Translations under genes and position numbers: made by a program | The notes under the pieces: model-generated | The model's input: only the letters and a program-made list of their open reading frames with translations | Told to the model about the DNA's origin: nothing | Databases searched by the model: none | Shown here: in pieces, positions 586-34,566 of the stretch | How the letters are laid out: every line of letters starts with the position of its first letter | Position numbering within the stretch: the first letter of the stretch is position 1 | DNA from: Prevotellaceae bacterium | Lineage (GTDB): Bacteria > Bacteroidota > Bacteroidia > Bacteroidales > Paludibacteraceae | DNA: 64,000 bases | Reading direction: 5' to 3' | Assembly (NCBI GenBank): GCA_020636695.1 | Contig: JACJXJ010000004.1 | Location: forward strand, 6,135 to 70,134

Positions 586-636
586 CCACGGAATAATATT
601 TGTCTTATATAATAACCCTTAAACTAACTGAATACC

Positions 637-2085
637 ATGTTAAGCATTCAAAAGAAAATGAGTAATGCATTTTTTGCGTTACTGAGCTTACCAGCAACGG
701 CCATGGGCTTTGCATTATCTGTTCAAATTTCAGCTTTAAGCTGGATTCTCTCCACAAAATATGGCTTAGATATTCACGAAATTGGTATCGTGTGGGCGGC
801 TGGTCCTATAGCAGGTATTTTAGCACAACCCATTGTCGGGATTTTGAGTGATAAAATGTGGTTTATGGGAGGTCGACGTCGTCCTTGGATTGTGATAGGC
901 GGGACATTGGCCGCCTTAATGATGTTAGCACTACCTAATTTAGAAATTATACAAAAATTATTTATCGGTGGCGACGACCCACAAGCGGGCTTGCTCTCAA
1001 TCGCCGTTATTGTAGCATTAACATTTGATTTAAGCATCAACGTGAGTTTCAATCCTACTCGTTCACTTATAGCAGATTGCACGCCAAAAGAACAACGCGC
1101 CAAAGGTTATACTTGGATGCAAACCGTATCGGGCACTTTCGGGGTATTGGCCTATTTAATTGGTGGTACGCTAGGCAACGAAGCTTTAATTTATATTGGT
1201 ATTGGCATTGCGTTATTGGCAACCATTATTCCAGCCTTTTTGATTAAGGAACCACGCGAATTACAAGCCATTGACGAAACATCACAAAAATCAAAAACAT
1301 CCTCACGAGATATCATTGAATCCATTTTACCACTTATTGGATTATTAGTCTATGGCGTGTACGTAATTGCTGAAAAATTATTTGGGTTCACAGTAACCTC
1401 AGGCGTTGAACTCTTTGGTTATTTTTTGAATAGTGTTGAATTCATATGTTTGTTATTAGTTGTAATCAGCACCATCATGGTACTATTTAACTTAACAGGA
1501 AGCAATAAAAACTCGAACGAATTTCAAAAAGTATTATTGGCCCATTCGTTCACTTGGATTGGCGTTCAAACCATGTTTGTATATGCCTTTTTCTATTTGC
1601 AAAACGTATTGAATCTAGGCGATTCAGCAGGAAGCGTCAATTCTATTGCCTTCTTTATTCTAAGCTTAGTCAGTGCCATTTTACCAGTATTGGTACTCAA
1701 TGGTTTTGCCAAGAAAATAGGAATGGTTAAAACACATATTATTTGTATATTCATCATGGCTGCTGGTTATGCTGGAGTTTATTTCGTAGGTACAACCACC
1801 CTTCTTTATTATGTTATGATTGGGATTGCGGGTATTGGTTGGGCATCGGTAGTTTCATTACCATTTGCCATTATGAGCGAAAAAGTAGACCAAACCAAAA
1901 TGGGATTATACATGGGCATTTTCAATTTATCAGTGGTGTTACCACAGTTGGTAGCATCATTCAAAATGGGTGAAGTGGTAAATGCGGCAGCCGACAAATC
2001 AGTTATCTTTGCTATTTGTGCAGTATGTTTAACCATATCAGGTTTACTCTGGTTCAGTGTCAAAAATGACAAAGAAAAGCGCTGA
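637..2085 (+). CDS. MFS transporter, GPH/sucrose-maltose symporter-like sugar transporter
   Basis: 482-aa ORF with about 12 hydrophobic segments and a GGRRRPW loop motif after TM2, typical of GPH/SLC45-type sugar:cation symporters. Confidence 0.7.
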   Translation: MLSIQKKMSNAFFALLSLPATAMGFALSVQISALSWILSTKYGLDIHEIGIVWAAGPIAGILAQPIVGILSDKMWFMGGRRRPWIVIGGTLAALMMLALPNLEIIQKLFIGGDDPQAGLLSIAVIVALTFDLSINVSFNPTRSLIADCTPKEQRAKGYTWMQTVSGTFGVLAYLIGGTLGNEALIYIGIGIALLATIIPAFLIKEPRELQAIDETSQKSKTSSRDIIESILPLIGLLVYGVYVIAEKLFGFTVTSGVELFGYFLNSVEFICLLLVVISTIMVLFNLTGSNKNSNEFQKVLLAHSFTWIGVQTMFVYAFFYLQNVLNLGDSAGSVNSIAFFILSLVSAILPVLVLNGFAKKIGMVKTHIICIFIMAAGYAGVYFVGTTTLLYYVMIGIAGIGWASVVSLPFAIMSEKVDQTKMGLYMGIFNLSVVLPQLVASFKMGEVVNAAADKSVIFAICAVCLTISGLLWFSVKNDKEKR

Positions 2086-20044: not shown

Positions 20045-20080
20045 TAAAAAAGGTCGTACTACAAAGTACGACCTTTTTTA
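20045..20080. terminator. bidirectional intrinsic terminator after tyrA
   Basis: AAAAAAGGTCGTACT/AGTACGACCTTTTTT hairpin with an A-run and a T-run. Confidence 0.8.
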
Positions 20081-20478: not shown

Positions 20479-21411
20479 TCACACAGAAGGGAAAAATCGT
20501 CGATAAGCACGCACAAGCCACACAAATGCAACGGCCAACAAAAAACGAGGAATGGTAATCCAAAACAGAGGAACGCCCATTGACCAAAAGAGCGATGTAT
20601 CCTCCAAAAGTGAATGATTGATGGCGATATGATAATTTAGCAAATTCACATCCTGACGTGGCATATCGTGTTCTTCTAACTCTTCAAGCAATACCGCCGA
20701 GCCGTAAGTCAATCCAACTGTTTGAGCCACAAACCACAAAAAAGAACTGTCACGGGACAATCCCATGAGTTTCATAAAAGGCGCAAACAGACGTGCAATA
20801 ACGTCCAAAATCTTGAATTCTTTTAAAACGGCTTGTAAAAACATCAACCCGGAAACAATAGCACTCATTTTAAGCACTAAGAAAAACGCCATGCGACACC
20901 AAGCCCATAACATATCCCCCATAGACTCGTAAACAATAGTCGTCTGAACATTACCCACCATATCGCCCATTTGAGCAGGCAATAACCAATTCAGCAACAA
21001 TGCCGATACAATGCTCATCAATAAACGCAGTGGGAAAATAATCCATGGAGAAGAACCTGTTTTACGCTGAACCGCCGTTTCCACAATCATATTGTGTGAA
21101 ATCAAACACATCAACGCTAAAATAGTCATTTCTCTGACGCCCAATGGCAAAGTAGCAATAATAGCAATAGGAGCGTATAAAGCCAAAAAGATACTAGAAA
21201 TAAAAACAATGGCAGCTTCACCAGGAAGACCCAAATAAGCAAAAAAAGGAGAAAGAATAAGCGACAACCAATCAATAACACCAAAAAACTGCAAAAAACT
21301 CACAAAAAGCGAAATTGGAAGAATTATTTTCAGCAACCAAATCACTGTTTTGGACGCTTTTGTAAGTGCCAATTTGAAACAAAGCAGAAGTCGTTTCGAT
21401 AGATTTGACAT
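20479..21411 (-). CDS. nucleoside-recognition (Gate) domain membrane protein
   Basis: 310-aa polytopic ORF whose hydrophobic pattern resembles Gate-domain/SpmA-B-like proteins. This is a weak, by-eye call. Confidence 0.5.
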   Translation of the reverse strand: MSNLSKRLLLCFKLALTKASKTVIWLLKIILPISLFVSFLQFFGVIDWLSLILSPFFAYLGLPGEAAIVFISSIFLALYAPIAIIATLPLGVREMTILALMCLISHNMIVETAVQRKTGSSPWIIFPLRLLMSIVSALLLNWLLPAQMGDMVGNVQTTIVYESMGDMLWAWCRMAFFLVLKMSAIVSGLMFLQAVLKEFKILDVIARLFAPFMKLMGLSRDSSFLWFVAQTVGLTYGSAVLLEELEEHDMPRQDVNLLNYHIAINHSLLEDTSLFWSMGVPLFWITIPRFLLAVAFVWLVRAYRRFFPSV

Positions 21412-21468
21412 AAATAGTGGATTGTTTTTTATACAATAAAAGGCTGATTTTCAGCGAAAAGCAACCCT

Positions 21469-21545
21469 TATAAAACAAGAAAGGGTTGTCGTCCCGACAA
21501 CCTCAATCTTTTCTTAACCTTAAATCTAATACCATGAAAAACACG
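21469..21545 (-). ncRNA. candidate small RNA, copy 1 (promoter-to-terminator unit)
   Basis: On the minus strand: TTG(-33)-N20-TACCTTTG(-7, 21549-21556), then a ~45-nt block identical to copy 2, then the hairpin GGTTGTCG-GGA-CGACAACC followed by CTTTCTTGTTTT. The 5' end is inferred from the -7 box. Confidence 0.5.
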
Positions 21546-21548
21546 TAA

Positions 21549-21556
21549 CAAAGGTA
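21549..21556 (-). promoter_or_regulatory. -7 box TACCTTTG of sRNA copy 1
   Basis: Exact TAnnTTTG match with ATGTTG 20 nt upstream. The same architecture is found in copy 2. Confidence 0.55.
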
Positions 21557-21912
21557 ATGCATTATTTTGTGTTGTGCAACATATTTTTTACAAAAAATAA
21601 CATATTTAACCTTTTTTATTAGTAAATAAAAGTTATTAAGTCATCAAAATATTATTAACTAATTTATAATCTGCAAGTTAAAATAATACACCACATCAAA
21701 GCAATTAAGACAACAGACAAATTATAAAAAATGCTATTTTTGAGAATTTTGAGAATTTTCGCCAAGCCAAAAACACCATAAAAATCCAAACTTTATCTAT
21801 TTAAAGCACCAAAATACTACATTCTAGGAGTTTAAAAAACCTAAAAAAGCTCAAATAAATAGGCATAAAAAAAAGTACATAAACAACTAACAAAAAGCCA
21901 TTTACATACCCC

Positions 21913-21989
21913 TATAAAACAAGAAAGGGCTGTCATCACGACACCCTCAATCTTTTCTTAACCTTAAATCTAATACCATGAAAAACACA
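21913..21989 (-). ncRNA. candidate small RNA, copy 2
   Basis: On the minus strand: TTG-N20-TATCTTTG (21993-22000), the same conserved block GTGTTTTTCATGGTATTAGATTTAAGGTTAAGAAAAGATTGAGG, then the hairpin GGGTGTC/GACAGCCC (different sequence, same position) and CTTTCTTGTTTT. Confidence 0.5.
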
Positions 21990-21992
21990 TTG

Positions 21993-22000
21993 CAAAGATA
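21993..22000 (-). promoter_or_regulatory. -7 box TATCTTTG of sRNA copy 2
   Basis: Exact TAnnTTTG match with ATGTTG 20 nt upstream. Confidence 0.55.
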
Positions 22001-22063
22001 AATGCTTTTTTTATGCTATACAACATATTATTCAAGAAAATTTAAAGTTTAACATTTTTTATA

Positions 22064-22501
22064 TTATCGGACCCAAAATTGGGTACGTCCTAATAAGCCA
22101 TGCTTATCTAAAGAACCACGTACTTTCAATTTGCCAGTAGCGGCATCGAGCTCAATTGACGCATGATAAGTCTTACCATTACCTGGGTCGAGAATAGTGC
22201 CATTCACAAAACTACCATTTTCATACTTCATATCACGAACAATGATGAGACCTTCCATGGGTTTGTTTTTATCAGCACCTTGGCACTCTACGCACAAACG
22301 AGGTTTACCATCGATTGAACGTTGGAATAACTGTTCGATTTTACCATAATACAACCCGTTGGTCGCTTTAAAAATACGTACAATTGACTTCTCTTTTCCT
22401 GTTTTATCATCAACAGTTCTCCATTCACCAAGCATATTTTTTTGTGCTTGAACTGCGAATGTCACACAAATAGCCGCTGTAAAAATTAAAATTAGTTTCA
22501 T
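22064..22501 (-). CDS. DUF2147-like secreted protein
   Basis: Signal peptide followed by GEWRTVDDKTGKEKSIVRIF...NGLYYGKIEQLF, which I recognise as the DUF2147 pattern. Confidence 0.65.
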   Translation of the reverse strand: MKLILIFTAAICVTFAVQAQKNMLGEWRTVDDKTGKEKSIVRIFKATNGLYYGKIEQLFQRSIDGKPRLCVECQGADKNKPMEGLIIVRDMKYENGSFVNGTILDPGNGKTYHASIELDAATGKLKVRGSLDKHGLLGRTQFWVR

Positions 22502-22564
22502 AAATTCATTTTGTTTTGGTTAATTAATAGGGACATTATGGGGACAAAGATAGAAAAATACTGG

Positions 22565-23740
22565 TTATTCTACATACAATACCAAACCTTTTAGATATTC
22601 ACCTTCTGGATGATAGATATTTACAGGATGGTCGGCAGGTTGAGTTAATTGGTGCAAAATGCGAACTTTACGTTTGCTTTGTGCGGCAGCACTAAATACC
22701 GCCAAGCGAAATTGCTCTTTAGTCACTACTTGAGAGCACGAAAAGGTAAACAGAATACCTCCTGGTTTAATCTGTTCAAAGGCTTTAGCGTTCAGTTTTT
22801 GGTAACCCCTCAAAGCGTTTCGTAGAGAATCTTTATGTTTGGCAAAAGCAGGAGGATCAAGAATAATTAAATCATACTGACCATCAATATCATCTAAAAA
22901 TTTAAAGGCATCCACCGTAAATGATTGATGTCGAGAATCATCCTCGAAATTGAGCGCAATATTTTTATTGGTTAATTCGATGGCTTTGGCAGAGCTATCC
23001 ACAGAATGCACCGAATGTGCATTACCACGCATGGCATAAAATGAAAAACCACCCGTGTAACAAAACATATTTAGAACATCACGACCATGGGCATATTTTT
23101 CAAGTAATGCGCGGTTTTCACGTTGGTCAATAAAAAAGCCTGTTTTTTGTCCTTTCAGCCAATCAGCATGAAACTTCAAACCATTTTCTATGGGAATACA
23201 TTTACTTTCTTGACCAATTAAATAGGTATCTTCGGCTACTACTGGTGCTTTAAACGGCAAAGTGCCTTCAGATTTATAATACACATTTTCGACGCCGTTA
23301 ATTTCTGCAACCAAAATTTCCGCAATCTGTTCGCGAACCATGTGCATACCCACAGAATGTGCTTGTATAACAGCGGTATCACCATATACGTCGACAACCA
23401 AACCTGGTAAATGGTCGCCTTCTCCATGCACTAAACGATAAGTGGTATTATTTTCTACATCTGCCACACGAATATCACGTCGCATTTGGTAAGCTTTACG
23501 AATGGCATTTTGATAGAAAGTACGATCGATAGCTTCATCACAAAACGACAAAACACGCACCATAATACTCCCAATTTGGTAGTGTCCCATGGCTAAGAAA
23601 TTGCCTTGTGAATCGACTACACGTACTACATCACCCTCTTCTGGTTTACCTTTAATTTGAGCTATGGCACCAGAAAAAATCCAAGGATGAAAACGAAATA
23701 AACTTTCCTCTTTATGAGGTTTTAAATAGACAACAACCAT
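22565..23740 (-). CDS. class I SAM-dependent rRNA (cytosine-C5) methyltransferase, RlmI-like (PUA + MTase)
   Basis: N-terminal HPWIFSGAI (PUA-like), FFIDQRENR, SAM-binding VLNMFCYTGGFS and DPPAF motifs. Confidence 0.82.
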   Translation of the reverse strand: MVVVYLKPHKEESLFRFHPWIFSGAIAQIKGKPEEGDVVRVVDSQGNFLAMGHYQIGSIMVRVLSFCDEAIDRTFYQNAIRKAYQMRRDIRVADVENNTTYRLVHGEGDHLPGLVVDVYGDTAVIQAHSVGMHMVREQIAEILVAEINGVENVYYKSEGTLPFKAPVVAEDTYLIGQESKCIPIENGLKFHADWLKGQKTGFFIDQRENRALLEKYAHGRDVLNMFCYTGGFSFYAMRGNAHSVHSVDSSAKAIELTNKNIALNFEDDSRHQSFTVDAFKFLDDIDGQYDLIILDPPAFAKHKDSLRNALRGYQKLNAKAFEQIKPGGILFTFSCSQVVTKEQFRLAVFSAAAQSKRKVRILHQLTQPADHPVNIYHPEGEYLKGLVLYVE

Positions 23741-23767
23741 AAATAGTGGAAATATATGAATGAAAAA

Positions 23768-24364
23768 TTACAAGGCAATAGCTTGTTTCTGTAACTCTAA
23801 ATAAATCTCTCGGCAGGCAAATGCATCAATAGCAGCATACGCTTGCTGTTGAGGCGACAAAATAGGCGCTTCCCAATTGGAAAGTTGTTGACTTTTTGAT
23901 ATTTTTTTTGCAAATACGATAGCGTAAATTTTTTGCAAGCTTTTTTCTTCTATACCAAATGCTTCAACATACTTTTGTAATTCTATAAAATTTTTAGGAT
24001 GTACACGCATCCATTTATTGAGCGACATAAAATCATCGCGAACGGACAAACCAATTTTTTTAACCTCCGAGCTTTCCAATAATTGTTTTAAACCTTCATG
24101 CTGACCAATAAGCTGTAAACGAAAGAGATAACAAGTATCAGCAGTTGCTAGTTGAAGTAATGAAATTGTATAACGCACATTTTTTGTAAAACTAGGTCGC
24201 GTCTCGGTATCAAAACCAATCACAGCTGCCTGCATCAATTGAGATACCGCATAATCAGCCTCTTGAGATGTTTTAACAACTACTATATTCCCTGAATTTT
24301 GAAGAATTGGTAACTCTGCAATCTGCGTTTTTGTAATATGTGTAGAATAATTTATCACAATCAA
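23768..24364 (-). CDS. 3'-5' exonuclease domain protein (DnaQ/RNase D-like)
   Basis: IGFDTETRP (ExoI), KIGLSVRDD (ExoII) and YAAIDAFACREIY (ExoIII, YxxxD). Confidence 0.8.
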   Translation of the reverse strand: MIVINYSTHITKTQIAELPILQNSGNIVVVKTSQEADYAVSQLMQAAVIGFDTETRPSFTKNVRYTISLLQLATADTCYLFRLQLIGQHEGLKQLLESSEVKKIGLSVRDDFMSLNKWMRVHPKNFIELQKYVEAFGIEEKSLQKIYAIVFAKKISKSQQLSNWEAPILSPQQQAYAAIDAFACREIYLELQKQAIAL

Positions 24365-32119: not shown

Positions 32120-34566
32120 TTGAAAAAAAATCTTCTCATACTAATCTTGCTGTTTTTGTGTGGCGCGCTCCCTGCAAAAAAAATATATTTACGCGGTTAT
32201 GTACTCGACAATAACAATCGTGGTATAGATTTAGCAAACATACAAGTAAAAGGAACCAGTCAAGGTACTTCTACCAACGAACAAGGTTTTTATGAATTAC
32301 GTCTCGAGGCAACGGACACTTTTCACGTGGTATATTCTTGCATTGGCTACGAAACTAAAGAATACAAGTTCCCAGCAACAGAAGACGTCATAAATGCCAC
32401 CAAAATATTACCATCGGTTTCGACACAATTGGAAAGTGTTGAAATTAGAGCTTTTCAACGCCAAACAAACACCATGCAAGGCATCGATACCGAAAAATTC
32501 AGAATGATGCCAGACGCTTCGGGTGGAAATTTAGAATCGATGTTATCGAGTTTTGCTGGCGTTAATTCCACCAACGAATTGAGTTCTCAATACTCTGTAC
32601 GTGGTGGTAGTTACGACGAGAACAGCGTTTATGTCAATAATATTGAAGTCTATCGACCATTGCTAGTGCGGGCAGGACAACAAGAAGGATTGAGTTTTAT
32701 TAATCCAGATTTGGTAGATAAAGTTCAGTTTTCGGCTGGTGGCTTTAGTGCAAAATATGGCGACAAAATGTCGTCGGTATTGGATGTAACCTACAAAATA
32801 ACCTGAAACAATTTGAAAGTTCACTCGCCATTAGTTTATTGGGAGCTTCTGGCATACTTAGGTTCTGCCTCCAAAAACTTCACACAAGTACACGGTATTC
32901 GTTATAAAACGTCATCGTACTTACTAGGTACACTCGATACCCAAGGTGAATATTCGCCTTCATTTGTGGATTACCAAACCTATATGACGTTTAAATTCAG
33001 CGACAAGTGGAATGGTTCATTTTTAGGTAATTTCTCGCAAAATTATTATCGATTTACACCTGTTGAAAGAGAGACATCATTTGGAACCTTACAAATGAAC
33101 CGGAACTTTAAAGTCTTTTTTGAAGGTATGGAAAAAGACATCTTTAGAACTTATTTTGGGGCATTTACGGTTAATTATCAGCCGCACAAAAACCTCAAAT
33201 TAAGTGTTATGACTTCCACTTACAATACGAATGAACAAGAAACTTACGATATTACTGGCCAATATTGGTTGTCGGATTTAGATATAAACAATACTGGTTA
33301 CACCAACAACCAGGGCGTTGGTACGTACCACGAGCATGCGCGCAACCGCTTATCGGCTACAGTAATCAATTTGTCACACTTAGGAGAATTTAAATATGCC
33401 AATCACCATATGCAATGGGGTGTAGGTATTCAACAGGAAATTATTTTAGACCGTATACGCGAATGGGAATTTAGAGATTCTGCAGGCTATTCACTCCCCT
33501 ACAATCCTGAAAAGGTTGAACTCATTTATAATCTTTCGGCGAAAACCAACCTAAGTACAACGCGTTTTACTGGCTATTTCGAAGAAACCTATAAAATCCC
33601 TTCCGCCACAGGTTTATGGACATTCAATGGCGGTGTGCGTTTTAACTATTGGTCGTTCAACAAAGAGTGGCTTGTAAGTCCACGCATTTCAGGTTCTTAT
33701 TTTCCCGATTGGGATGTGGACGTTAATTTCCGAATGGCGGCGGGTTTATACCATCAAGCACCTTTTTATAAAGAAATTCGAACAGAAGTTACTGACAACG
33801 ATGGGAATACCACAATGGTACTAAATCCCAAACATACAAGCACAACGCTCATTACACTTGTTACTTGGTGCTGATTATTTCTTTAGGCTTGGAATCGACC
33901 ATTCAAATTTACGGTTGAAGGATATTATAAACCAGGTGATCGGATTAATCCCTATTATGTAGACAATGTGCGCATTCGTTATAGTGGTCAGAATAATGCC
34001 GTAGCACAAACAGCGGGTGTCGATTTAAAATTATTTGGTGAATTTGTGCCTGGCACCGATTCGTGGATTTCATTCTCGTGGATGTATTCTAAAGAAGATA
34101 TTCTAAATGATTCTTATCAAGTATATAGCAACACTGGAAATTTGTTAGGCACTGTTTATCCCGGCTATATTTCACGACCAAATGAACAACGTTACAATGT
34201 ATCAATGTTTTTTCAAGACTATTTCCCAAACCATCCTGAATATAAAATATACTTAAAATTAGTATGGTCTGATGGATTACCATTTGGGCCACCTCATAGT
34301 GAACGATATCAAGCAGTATTGCGTACAAAAGCCTATAACCGTGTAGATATTGGAGCATCACGTGGCTTTTTGAAGGGACAAGATAAATTTATGGATAAAC
34401 AAAACGTGATAAAAGCGCTTTGGCTCAATTTGAATTATTTAACCTATTCAATATTAGAAATGTAAACTCCTATTATTGGGTAACCGACATCTACAATCAA
34501 CAGTTTGCAGTTCCCAACTACCTCACAGGATTTATGGTTAATTTTAAAGTCTCGGTTGATTTCTAA
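32120..34566 (+). pseudogene. TonB-dependent receptor (CarboxypepD_reg + plug + barrel) with at least 5 indels
   Basis: Signal peptide, carboxypeptidase-regulatory-like N-domain and plug (SVRGGSYDEN). The reconstructed C-terminus ...FMVNFKVSVDF ends in the canonical terminal Phe. Frame switches lie near 32797, 32851, 33836, 33893 and 34430. The start codon is TTG. Confidence 0.8.

What the first reader, a model, noticed from the sequence alone, without database searches (positions are those of the whole stretch)
21469..22027. Duplicated promoter-to-terminator unit of about 75 nt: candidate paralogous small RNAs in an ORF-poor gap
Two direct copies lie 444 bp apart (21469-21585 and 21913-22027). 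Read on the minus strand, each contains ATGTTG, a 20-nt non-conserved spacer, a TAnnTTTG -7 box (TACCTTTG in one, TATCTTTG in the other), and a 44-nt block identical in both copies (GTGTTTTTCATGGTATTAGATTTAAGGTTAAGAAAAGATTGAGG). This is followed by a hairpin and CTTTCTTGTTTT. The hairpin sequence differs between copies (GGTTGTCG/CGACAACC versus GGGTGTC/GACAGCCC) while pairing is retained. Conservation drops in the promoter spacer and outside the unit. That pattern is what I would expect for a transcribed, structured RNA rather than a protein-coding remnant. The conserved single-stranded block contains CAUGGUAUU, the complement of a translation-initiation region (AAUACCAUG). An alternative reading is that copy 1, which lies 58 nt upstream of the start of the 20479-21411 membrane protein gene, is a terminator-containing 5' leader. 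In that copy the 3' arm CAACCCTT can also pair with AAGGGTTG just downstream. Copy 2 has no comparable gene behind it.
Basis: partly seen in the sequence, partly recalled or inferred. Interest (0 to 1): 0.65.

Follow-up and report, generated by a model that had tools for sequence, protein, structure and literature searches.

The report
Two tandem FopS small-RNA genes

Summary
Two direct copies lie 444 bp apart and share a 44-nt block that is identical on the minus strand (0 expected by chance). Both match Rfam RF04319, "Bacteroidetes FopS (family of paralogous sRNAs)", over the full model and above the gathering score (77.1 and 73.0 bits; cut-off 56). Each copy has a Bacteroidetes -7 box (TAnnTTTG) at -12..-5, the unpaired FopS 5' seed, and a terminator hairpin with a U-tract. 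The 31-nt core occurs exactly in at least 120 contigs from many Bacteroidales families. All 123 promoters examined keep the -7 box, and the terminator helix covaries. Metagenome relatives about 90% identical keep the tandem pair while the spacer between the copies diverges. The 10-codon ORF inside the unit and a plus-strand gene remnant are both excluded. In B. thetaiotaomicron, FopS RNAs pair with start regions of susC-type mRNAs and block translation, and the protein RbpB counteracts them. Here that mechanism is inferred, and no conserved target was found in the window. Two side leads came up. Both promoters carry a near-match to the published Cur/BT4338 box. Copy 1 has no promoter between it and the downstream membrane-protein gene, so read-through may feed that gene. 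Novelty: already known. Interest: low.

The parts
21469..21544 (-). FopS copy 1 (sRNA gene). Predicted 5' end at G21544. Unpaired seed and linker about 21503-21544, terminator and U-tract 21472-21502.
   Evidence: Rfam RF04319, 77.1 bits (GA 56), model 1-71 of 71. Fold.
21484..21502 (-). Copy 1 terminator hairpin GGTTGTCG-GGA-CGACAACC, followed by CTTTCTTGTTTT.
   Evidence: Terminator scan, fold, helix covariation across 122 homologues.
21549..21556 (-). Copy 1 -7 promoter box TACCTTTG (-12..-5 from the predicted +1).
   Evidence: Sequence. TAnnTTTG sits at this offset in 123 of 123 homologous loci.
21568..21583 (.). Copy 1 palindrome TATGTTGCACAACACA (minus strand), 2 mismatches to the Cur/BT4338 box TATGTTnTAnAACATA. 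It overlaps the -33 region; centre about -31.5.
   Evidence: Consensus from PMC3878776 and PMC6989115.
21439..21469 (-). Second terminator-like hairpin after copy 1 (AAGGGTTGCTTTTCGCTGAAAATCAGCCTTT, then TATTGT), in the 57 nt before the Gate-gene ATG.
   Evidence: Fold. Inner stem found by the terminator scan at 21443-21455. Outer stem largely kept in relatives.
21913..21988 (-). FopS copy 2 (sRNA gene). Predicted 5' end at G21988.
   Evidence: Rfam RF04319, 73.0 bits (GA 56), model 1-71 of 71.
21927..21946 (-). Copy 2 terminator hairpin GGGTGTC-GTGAT-GACAGCCC (one bulged G), followed by CTTTCTTGTTTT.
   Evidence: Fold. Relatives L128-L130 vary only at two stem positions.
21993..22000 (-). Copy 2 -7 promoter box TATCTTTG.
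22012..22027 (.). Copy 2 palindrome TATGTTGTATAGCATA (minus strand), 1 mismatch to the Cur/BT4338 box; centre about -31.5.
21868..21912 (-). AU-rich hairpin plus U8 downstream of copy 2; a possible second terminator.
   Evidence: Fold, z = -3.1 for the extended transcript. This stretch is better conserved than the rest of the spacer in relatives.
20479..21411 (-). Downstream gene for a membrane protein with a nucleoside-recognition (Gate) domain. It has no canonical promoter of its own after copy 1.
   Evidence: Pfam PF07670. No TAnnTTTG on the minus strand between 21411 and 21549.
22064..23740 (-). Upstream syntenic anchor: the rlmI-like rRNA methyltransferase gene (22565-23740) and a DUF2147 gene (22064-22501).
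   Evidence: Pfam. Exonuclease-methyltransferase-FopS order in 21 loci that were chosen only by the RNA core. The DUF2147 insert is shared with Paludibacter-type loci.

Best explanation
The two units are tandem paralogous genes of the FopS small-RNA family (Rfam RF04319), in a genome whose proteins are closest to Paludibacteraceae (order Bacteroidales).

Each unit is transcribed on the minus strand from its own Bacteroidetes sigma-ABfr-type promoter. Transcription is predicted to start at G21544 and G21988 and to stop at an intrinsic terminator, giving RNAs of about 73 nt.

The first ~40 nt are unpaired and match the family consensus, including the R1/R1' seed (GUGUUUUUCAUGGUAUUAGAU...). In Bacteroides thetaiotaomicron this seed pairs with the start-codon region of the first mRNA of polysaccharide-utilisation operons, mostly susC-type transporters, and blocks ribosome loading. 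The RRM protein RbpB binds the same 5' part of the sRNA and relieves repression.

Shown here: family membership, promoter, terminator, conservation and the tandem duplication. Inferred from the identical seed: trans-acting translational repression in this organism. Its targets and an RbpB partner lie outside what the window can show.
For: - Rfam hits above the gathering score for both copies, full model length, on the minus strand.
- The identical 44-nt block is far beyond chance.
- The 31-nt core occurs exactly in at least 120 genome contigs from Paludibacteraceae, Dysgonomonadaceae, Muribaculaceae, Prevotellaceae, Bacteroidaceae, Tannerellaceae, Porphyromonadaceae, Odoribacter and others.
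- In 123 of 123 of these loci TAnnTTTG sits at -12..-5, although the loci were selected only on the RNA core.
- Terminator helix: 88% of cells paired, 7 of 8 pairs changed on both sides, 73 compensatory cells against 24.8 in shuffles, 0 of 500 shuffles as high.
- Three metagenome relatives at 89-91% identity keep both copies nearly invariant, while the spacer between them diverges strongly.
- Published mechanism and anatomy: PMC11697453.
Against: - There are no expression data for this organism, so the 5' and 3' ends are predictions.
- No RRM/RbpB gene was found in the 64 kb by motif scan.
- No intact susC/susD pair is present. The only TonB-dependent receptor gene shows weak seed complementarity.
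- The best in-window seed match is the start region of the MFS transporter gene at 637 (-23.1 kcal/mol). It is not conserved in orthologues.
- The family was described as conserved in Bacteroidaceae, and function outside that family is untested.
Confidence: 0.92

Rival explanations
1. Copy 1 is, in addition or instead, the 5' leader of the downstream Gate-domain / DUF454 membrane-protein operon. That operon would be transcribed from the FopS-1 promoter by read-through of one or two terminators, so the terminators set how much message is made.
For: - The only minus-strand TAnnTTTG upstream of the ATG at 21411 and downstream of 21600 is the FopS-1 promoter.
- Two terminator-like hairpins lie in the 130-nt leader.
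- In the distant relative L007 (Gate protein 55% identical) a single FopS is followed by the Gate ATG only about 22 nt after the U-tract.
- In the L006 group FopS is followed, about 45 nt after the U-tract, by an rlmN-like gene with no intervening -7 box.
- In the L006 group the sequence after the U-tract (AAGGGTAGCC) tracks the stem sequence, as AAGGGTTG does in the window.
Against: - Only 15 of 112 evaluable FopS copies have a promoter-less same-strand ORF within 320 nt. Most are stand-alone.
- Copy 2 has the same RNA but no gene behind it.
- The CAACCCTT/AAGGGTTG pairing forms only after the terminator has been transcribed, so it cannot prevent termination.
- A non-canonical promoter for the Gate gene cannot be excluded.
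Confidence: 0.3
2. The unit encodes a conserved micro-peptide (ATG at 21535 / 21979, MVLDLRLRKD) or a leader peptide.
For: An ATG-initiated 10-codon ORF exists in both copies.
Against: - Across 122 homologues the frame after the invariant core ends anywhere from 8 to more than 30 codons, with unrelated sequence, and often runs through the terminator.
- B. thetaiotaomicron copies read CATAGT at this site and so lack the ATG.
- The authors of the family excluded sORFs.
Confidence: 0.02
3. The repeats are non-functional duplicated remnants, for example of a plus-strand gene 5' end or a mobile element.
For: Plus-strand ATACCATGAAAAAC looks like a gene start.
Against: - All plus-strand frames are closed by stops within a few codons.
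- Conservation is order-wide, with a promoter at a fixed offset.
- The chromosomal neighbourhood is conserved.
- The two units are conserved and the spacer between them is not.
Confidence: 0.02

Closest known systems
FopS sRNA family (Rfam RF04319; Ruttiger et al., Nat Commun 2025, PMC11697453)
   Same: Full-length match above the gathering score. The 5' seed R1/R1' matches the consensus. Single terminator hairpin, sigma-ABfr -7 box, multicopy, about 70 nt.
   Different: The host is Paludibacteraceae-like, whereas the paper describes conservation within Bacteroidaceae. The linker and tail are of a 'Paludibacter type' (GAAAAGATTGAGG ... CTTTCTTGTTTT). The two copies are in direct tandem. Copy 1 abuts a promoter-less gene, whereas the paper lists only intergenic, antisense and 3'UTR-derived members. 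The window seed reads CAUGGUAUU, while the B. thetaiotaomicron copies seen read CAUAGUAUU.
GibS sRNA (Rfam RF04182; B. thetaiotaomicron)
   Same: Shares the R1 seed at the 5' end (alignment).
   Different: GibS is 142 nt with a second seed (R2), extra stem-loops and a different promoter motif (PM2). The window copies score 46 bits against a gathering score of 115. This is not a member.
BTnc231 (Rfam RF04180)
   Same: Weak similarity over the 5' part (35.8 and 25.1 bits).
   Different: Far below the gathering score of 80.4. This is not a member.
Multicopy seed-sharing sRNAs of Proteobacteria (OmrA/OmrB, Qrr1-5)
   Same: Paralogous sRNAs with an identical 5' seed and divergent 3' parts, sometimes in tandem. 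They repress outer-membrane or transport protein mRNAs at the start codon.
   Different: No sequence relation, and they depend on Hfq. For FopS the partner protein RbpB antagonises the sRNA rather than assisting it (PMC11697453, PMC12205990).

Membership tests
FopS (RF04319) | Covariance-model score at or above the curated gathering score, full length | tested here: met
   77.1 and 73.0 bits against GA 56; model 1-71 of 71; not truncated.
FopS (RF04319) | Conserved unpaired 5' seed (R1/R1') | tested here: met
   Positions 1-31 match the Rfam consensus. They are unpaired, or nearly so, in the predicted folds.
FopS (RF04319) | Single Rho-independent terminator hairpin plus U-tract | tested here: met
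   The helix covaries across 122 homologues. The U-tract is interrupted (CUUUCUUGUUUU).
FopS (RF04319) | Own canonical sigma-ABfr promoter (-7 TAnnTTTG, -33 TTG) | tested here: met
   TACCTTTG and TATCTTTG at -12..-5, the same offset as in 123 of 123 loci. TTG of ATGTTG lies at about -36..-34.
FopS (RF04319) | Multicopy paralogues in one genome | tested here: met
   Two copies in 64 kb. The genome-wide number is unknown.
FopS (RF04319) | Discrete transcript of about 65-70 nt, induced by bile salts | not testable with these tools
   No expression data. The predicted length is about 73 nt.
FopS (RF04319) | Bound by RbpB; represses susC-type mRNAs at the start codon | not testable with these tools
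   No RRM gene in the window. No conserved target in the window.
GibS (RF04182) | Score at or above GA 115; R2 seed and additional stem-loops | tested here: not met
   46.6 and 46.3 bits. Only the R1 part aligns well.
Transcription attenuator / leader of the downstream gene | Terminator in the 5' UTR, with an alternative structure or factor that decides read-through | tested here: inconclusive
   No separate promoter for the Gate gene and the adjacency recurs in L007. No upstream antiterminator pairing was found. The arrangement is present in only 15 of 112 family members.

The most novel reading that the evidence does not exclude
FopS genes across Bacteroidales, including these two, may belong to the regulon of Cur/BT4338, the CRP-like master regulator of carbohydrate use. 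A Cur box (TATGTTnTAnAACATA) overlapping the -33 region would tie translational silencing of glycan-uptake operons directly to carbon status.

Evidence for the box:
- 24 of 123 FopS promoters match all 14 specified positions, and 56 of 123 have 2 or fewer mismatches, against 0.42% of background 55-mers.
- The distribution is bimodal, and information content drops to about 0 right after the box.
- The window copies have 1 and 2 mismatches and are the only such sites in the 64 kb.
- In the published BT4338 ChIP-seq peak table for B. thetaiotaomicron, at least 6 peak sequences contain a FopS 17-mer core. One of them also has a perfect box upstream.
- The FopS paper attributes induction to 'an unknown transcriptional regulator' and, in the text searched, does not connect Cur to fopS promoters.

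In Paludibacteraceae, one copy may in addition serve as the promoter and leader of a downstream membrane-protein operon.
Probability: 0.4. Interest if true: 0.45.

Novelty: already known. Interest (0 to 1): 0.18.

Why it matters
For annotation, the gap at 21412-22063 is not empty. It holds two FopS sRNA genes, which places the family, with an identical seed, in a Paludibacteraceae-like genome outside the Bacteroidaceae where it was characterised. The order-wide conservation of the seed and the conserved position behind the rlmI-like gene suggest that FopS is an old part of Bacteroidales regulation rather than a gut-Bacteroides speciality. The Cur-box lead, if confirmed, would name the missing transcriptional input of the family.

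Tried and rejected
- **Micro-peptide reading.** The frame is not conserved beyond the invariant RNA core.
- **Plus-strand gene remnant.** All frames are closed by stops.
- **In-window target search.** I ran an RNA duplex scan of the 30-nt seed against the whole window. The best hit was the start region of the MFS/SLC45-type sugar transporter gene at 637 (-23.1 kcal/mol, z = -4.8). The pairing is not kept in orthologues at 89%, 81%, 78% and 72% identity (-16.8 to -13.9 kcal/mol, one at -18.9), so I treat it as unsupported.
- **RbpB partner.** A motif scan for RRM proteins in the window found nothing.
- **Exact-protein look-up of the methyltransferase.** Not on record. The closest named relatives place the window in or near Paludibacteraceae.
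- **Divergent extra paralogues.** An nhmmer profile over about 1 Mb of fetched loci plus the window found none beyond the exact-core copies.
- **Closest-by-protein Paludibacteraceae loci.** L121-L124 (methyltransferase 77-83% identical) carry no FopS in the fetched DNA, and there prfC follows the methyltransferase gene.
- **Sigma-70 promoter scan.** Uninformative for this phylum: 16 found against 15.1 expected.

Full report
**Observation**

The repeat is real. The repeat finder reports two 153-nt copies (21464-21616 and 21908-22060), 80% identical and 444 nt apart. Read on the minus strand, each copy has these parts in order:
- ATGTTG
- 20 nt of spacer
- a TAnnTTTG box (TACCTTTG at 21549-21556, TATCTTTG at 21993-22000)
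- the 44-nt block
- a hairpin
- CTTTCTTGTTTT

Two details need correction. The copy 2 stem (GGGTGTC/GACAGCCC) needs a bulged G, while the copy 1 stem is a perfect 8-bp helix. The promoter spacer is not wholly unconstrained (see the promoter side lead below).

**Identity**

A scan of the whole window against Rfam 15 gives two hits above the gathering score for RF04319, "Bacteroidetes FopS (family of paralogous sRNAs)". They lie at 21469-21544(-), 77.1 bits, and 21913-21988(-), 73.0 bits, against a gathering score of 56, and both cover model positions 1-71 of 71. The alignments show positions 1-31 matching the consensus, followed by the single terminator helix. GibS (RF04182) and BTnc231 (RF04180) appear only far below their thresholds, through the shared 5' seed.

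The family was defined by Ruttiger et al. (Nat Commun 2025, PMC11697453):
- B. thetaiotaomicron has 14 copies of about 65-70 nt.
- The copies have canonical sigma-ABfr promoters, an unpaired 5' seed (R1/R1') and a Rho-independent terminator.
- The RRM protein RbpB binds them.
- They repress susC-type and other first genes of polysaccharide-utilisation operons by pairing next to the start codon.
- RbpB relieves this repression.
- They are induced by bile salts through an unknown regulator.

**Host and neighbourhood**

The window has about 38% G+C. The rlmI-like methyltransferase at 22565-23740 has its best named relatives (77-78% identity) in Paludibacteraceae MAGs. The MFS transporter gene at 637 likewise points to Paludibacter and Paludibacteraceae. 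The gene order on the minus strand is:
1. ZIP transporter
2. DUF5063
3. 3'-5' exonuclease
4. rlmI-like methyltransferase
5. DUF2147
6. FopS-2
7. FopS-1
8. Gate-domain membrane protein (20479-21411)
9. DUF454

**Comparative evidence**

They come from many Bacteroidales families and no other order, apart from one contig in a MAG labelled Staphylococcus.
- These loci were selected only on the RNA core, yet 123 of 123 carry TAnnTTTG at -12..-5, with a TTG around -35..-33.
- In an alignment of 122 distinct copies, the terminator helix is paired in 88% of cells. Seven of 8 pairs change on both sides, and there are 73 compensatory cells against 24.8 in shuffles (0 of 500 shuffles as high). Slid controls are much lower.
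- In 21 of these loci FopS lies about 90-130 nt behind the stop codon of the rlmI-like gene, on the same strand.
- Paludibacter-type loci share the DUF2147 insert seen in the window. This is probably the ancestral orthologous locus.

A metagenome scan with the window-type linker found three contigs (L128-L130) that are 89-91% identical to the window across the region and also carry the tandem pair. In the four-way alignment both units, from about -75 to past the terminator, are almost invariant. Substitutions inside the RNAs fall only in the hairpin stem or loop. The roughly 230 nt between the units is riddled with substitutions and indels. More distant relatives (L007, L006, L125-L127, L132) have a single copy at this place, so the 444-bp tandem duplication is specific to this lineage.

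**Rivals**

*Micro-peptide.* The ORF MVLDLRLRKD is not conserved. After the invariant core the frame ends anywhere from 8 to more than 30 codons, and the peptide sequences are unrelated. B. thetaiotaomicron copies read CATAGT there and so lack the ATG.

*Plus-strand remnant.* All plus-strand frames are closed by stops.

*Leader of the downstream gene.* This reading for copy 1 has some support.
- No minus-strand -7 box lies between the FopS-1 promoter and the ATG at 21411.
- A second terminator-like hairpin sits in between.
- In L007, whose Gate protein is only 55% identical, the single FopS is followed by the Gate ATG about 22 nt after the U-tract.
- In the L006 group an rlmN-like gene follows in the same way.
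- Against it, only 15 of 112 evaluable copies have a promoter-less same-strand ORF within 320 nt, and copy 2 has none.

I therefore take read-through into the Gate operon as a possible added role of copy 1, not as the nature of the unit. The CAACCCTT/AAGGGTTG pairing is real, and its counterpart in the L006 group tracks the stem sequence. Because it lies 3' of the terminator, it cannot act as a classical antiterminator.

**Mechanism in this organism**

This is inferred from the identity of the seed.
- The window holds no RRM gene.
- It holds no intact susC/susD pair. A TonB-dependent receptor gene at 32120-34465 is interrupted by in-frame stops and has little seed complementarity.
- The best duplex in the window falls on the start codon of the MFS/SLC45-type transporter gene at 637 (-23.1 kcal/mol), but orthologues do not keep it.

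Targets therefore remain unknown.

**Side lead: promoter palindrome**

Of 123 FopS promoters, 55 have ATGTT-N4-AACAT with at most one mismatch, against 0.67% of background 55-mers.

This palindrome matches the published binding consensus of BT4338/Cur, wwwTATGTTnTAnAACATAwww. The consensus was predicted in PMC3878776. In PMC6989115, deleting a matching 22-bp site at fusA2 abolished BT4338 binding.

Against the 14 specified positions of that consensus:
- 24 promoters are perfect and 56 have 2 or fewer mismatches. The distribution is bimodal, against 0.42% of background 55-mers.
- Conservation collapses directly after the box.
- Copy 2 has 1 mismatch (22012-22027) and copy 1 has 2 (21568-21583). 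They are the only such sites in the window, although two sites are not significant by count alone.

The stored part of the published BT4338 ChIP-seq peak table contains at least 6 peak sequences with a FopS 17-mer core. Peak 47 also has a perfect box upstream. By my rough estimate, the sequences shown cover about 4-5% of the B. thetaiotaomicron genome.

The FopS paper does not link Cur to fopS promoters in the text searched. This is a lead, not a finding about the window.

**Verdict**

The object is a pair of new instances of an already described, Rfam-curated sRNA family, so interest is low.

Noticed in passing
window 21568-21583 and 22012-22027; promoters of L001-L120: A palindrome overlapping the -33 region of FopS promoters matches the published Cur/BT4338 box TATGTTnTAnAACATA. 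Of 123 promoters, 24 are perfect and 56 have 2 or fewer mismatches, against 0.42% of background 55-mers. At least 6 published BT4338 ChIP-seq peak sequences of B. thetaiotaomicron contain a FopS core.
   Followed up: partly
window 22565-24364 with 21913-21988; L002, L021, L030, L035, L064, L120 and others: The order exonuclease, rlmI-like methyltransferase, FopS (same strand, about 90-130 nt after the stop codon) recurs in 21 loci from many Bacteroidales families. This is probably the ancestral FopS locus. Paludibacter-type genomes have a DUF2147 gene inserted before FopS.
   Followed up: partly
window 21439-21469 and 21868-21912; L006 4575-4595: Both copies are followed by a second terminator-like hairpin. 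In the L006 group the sequence after the U-tract (AAGGGTAGCC) repeats the 5' arm and can re-pair with the 3' arm. That forms an alternative hairpin which is also followed by a U-tract.
   Followed up: partly
window 21411-21549; L007 3831-3925; L006 4502-4627: No -7 box lies between FopS and the next same-strand gene (Gate-domain protein in the window and L007, rlmN-like in the L006 group). These genes may depend on read-through from the FopS promoter.
   Followed up: partly
window 32120-34465 (+): A TonB-dependent receptor gene (CarboxypepD_reg and Plug domains) is split into three ORFs by in-frame stops near 32804 and 33875. It is either a pseudogene or a sequencing error.
   Followed up: no
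window 601-650 (+): The start region of an MFS/SLC45-type sugar transporter gene (ATG at 637) is the best trans match to the FopS seed in the window (-23.1 kcal/mol). The pairing is not conserved in orthologues.
   Followed up: yes
window 20045-20080: A perfect 16-bp palindrome flanked by A- and T-runs lies between the convergent DUF454 gene (-) and prephenate-dehydrogenase-like gene (+). It looks like a bidirectional terminator.
   Followed up: no
L038 (CAZKNK010000043.1): A contig of a MAG labelled 'uncultured Staphylococcus sp.' carries a FopS core with a Bacteroidetes -7 box. It is probably a mis-binned Bacteroidales contig.
   Followed up: no
window 21737-21759 (-): A short tandem AAAATTCTCA x2 sits in the spacer between the copies. 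It is not conserved in the relatives at about 90% identity.
   Followed up: no
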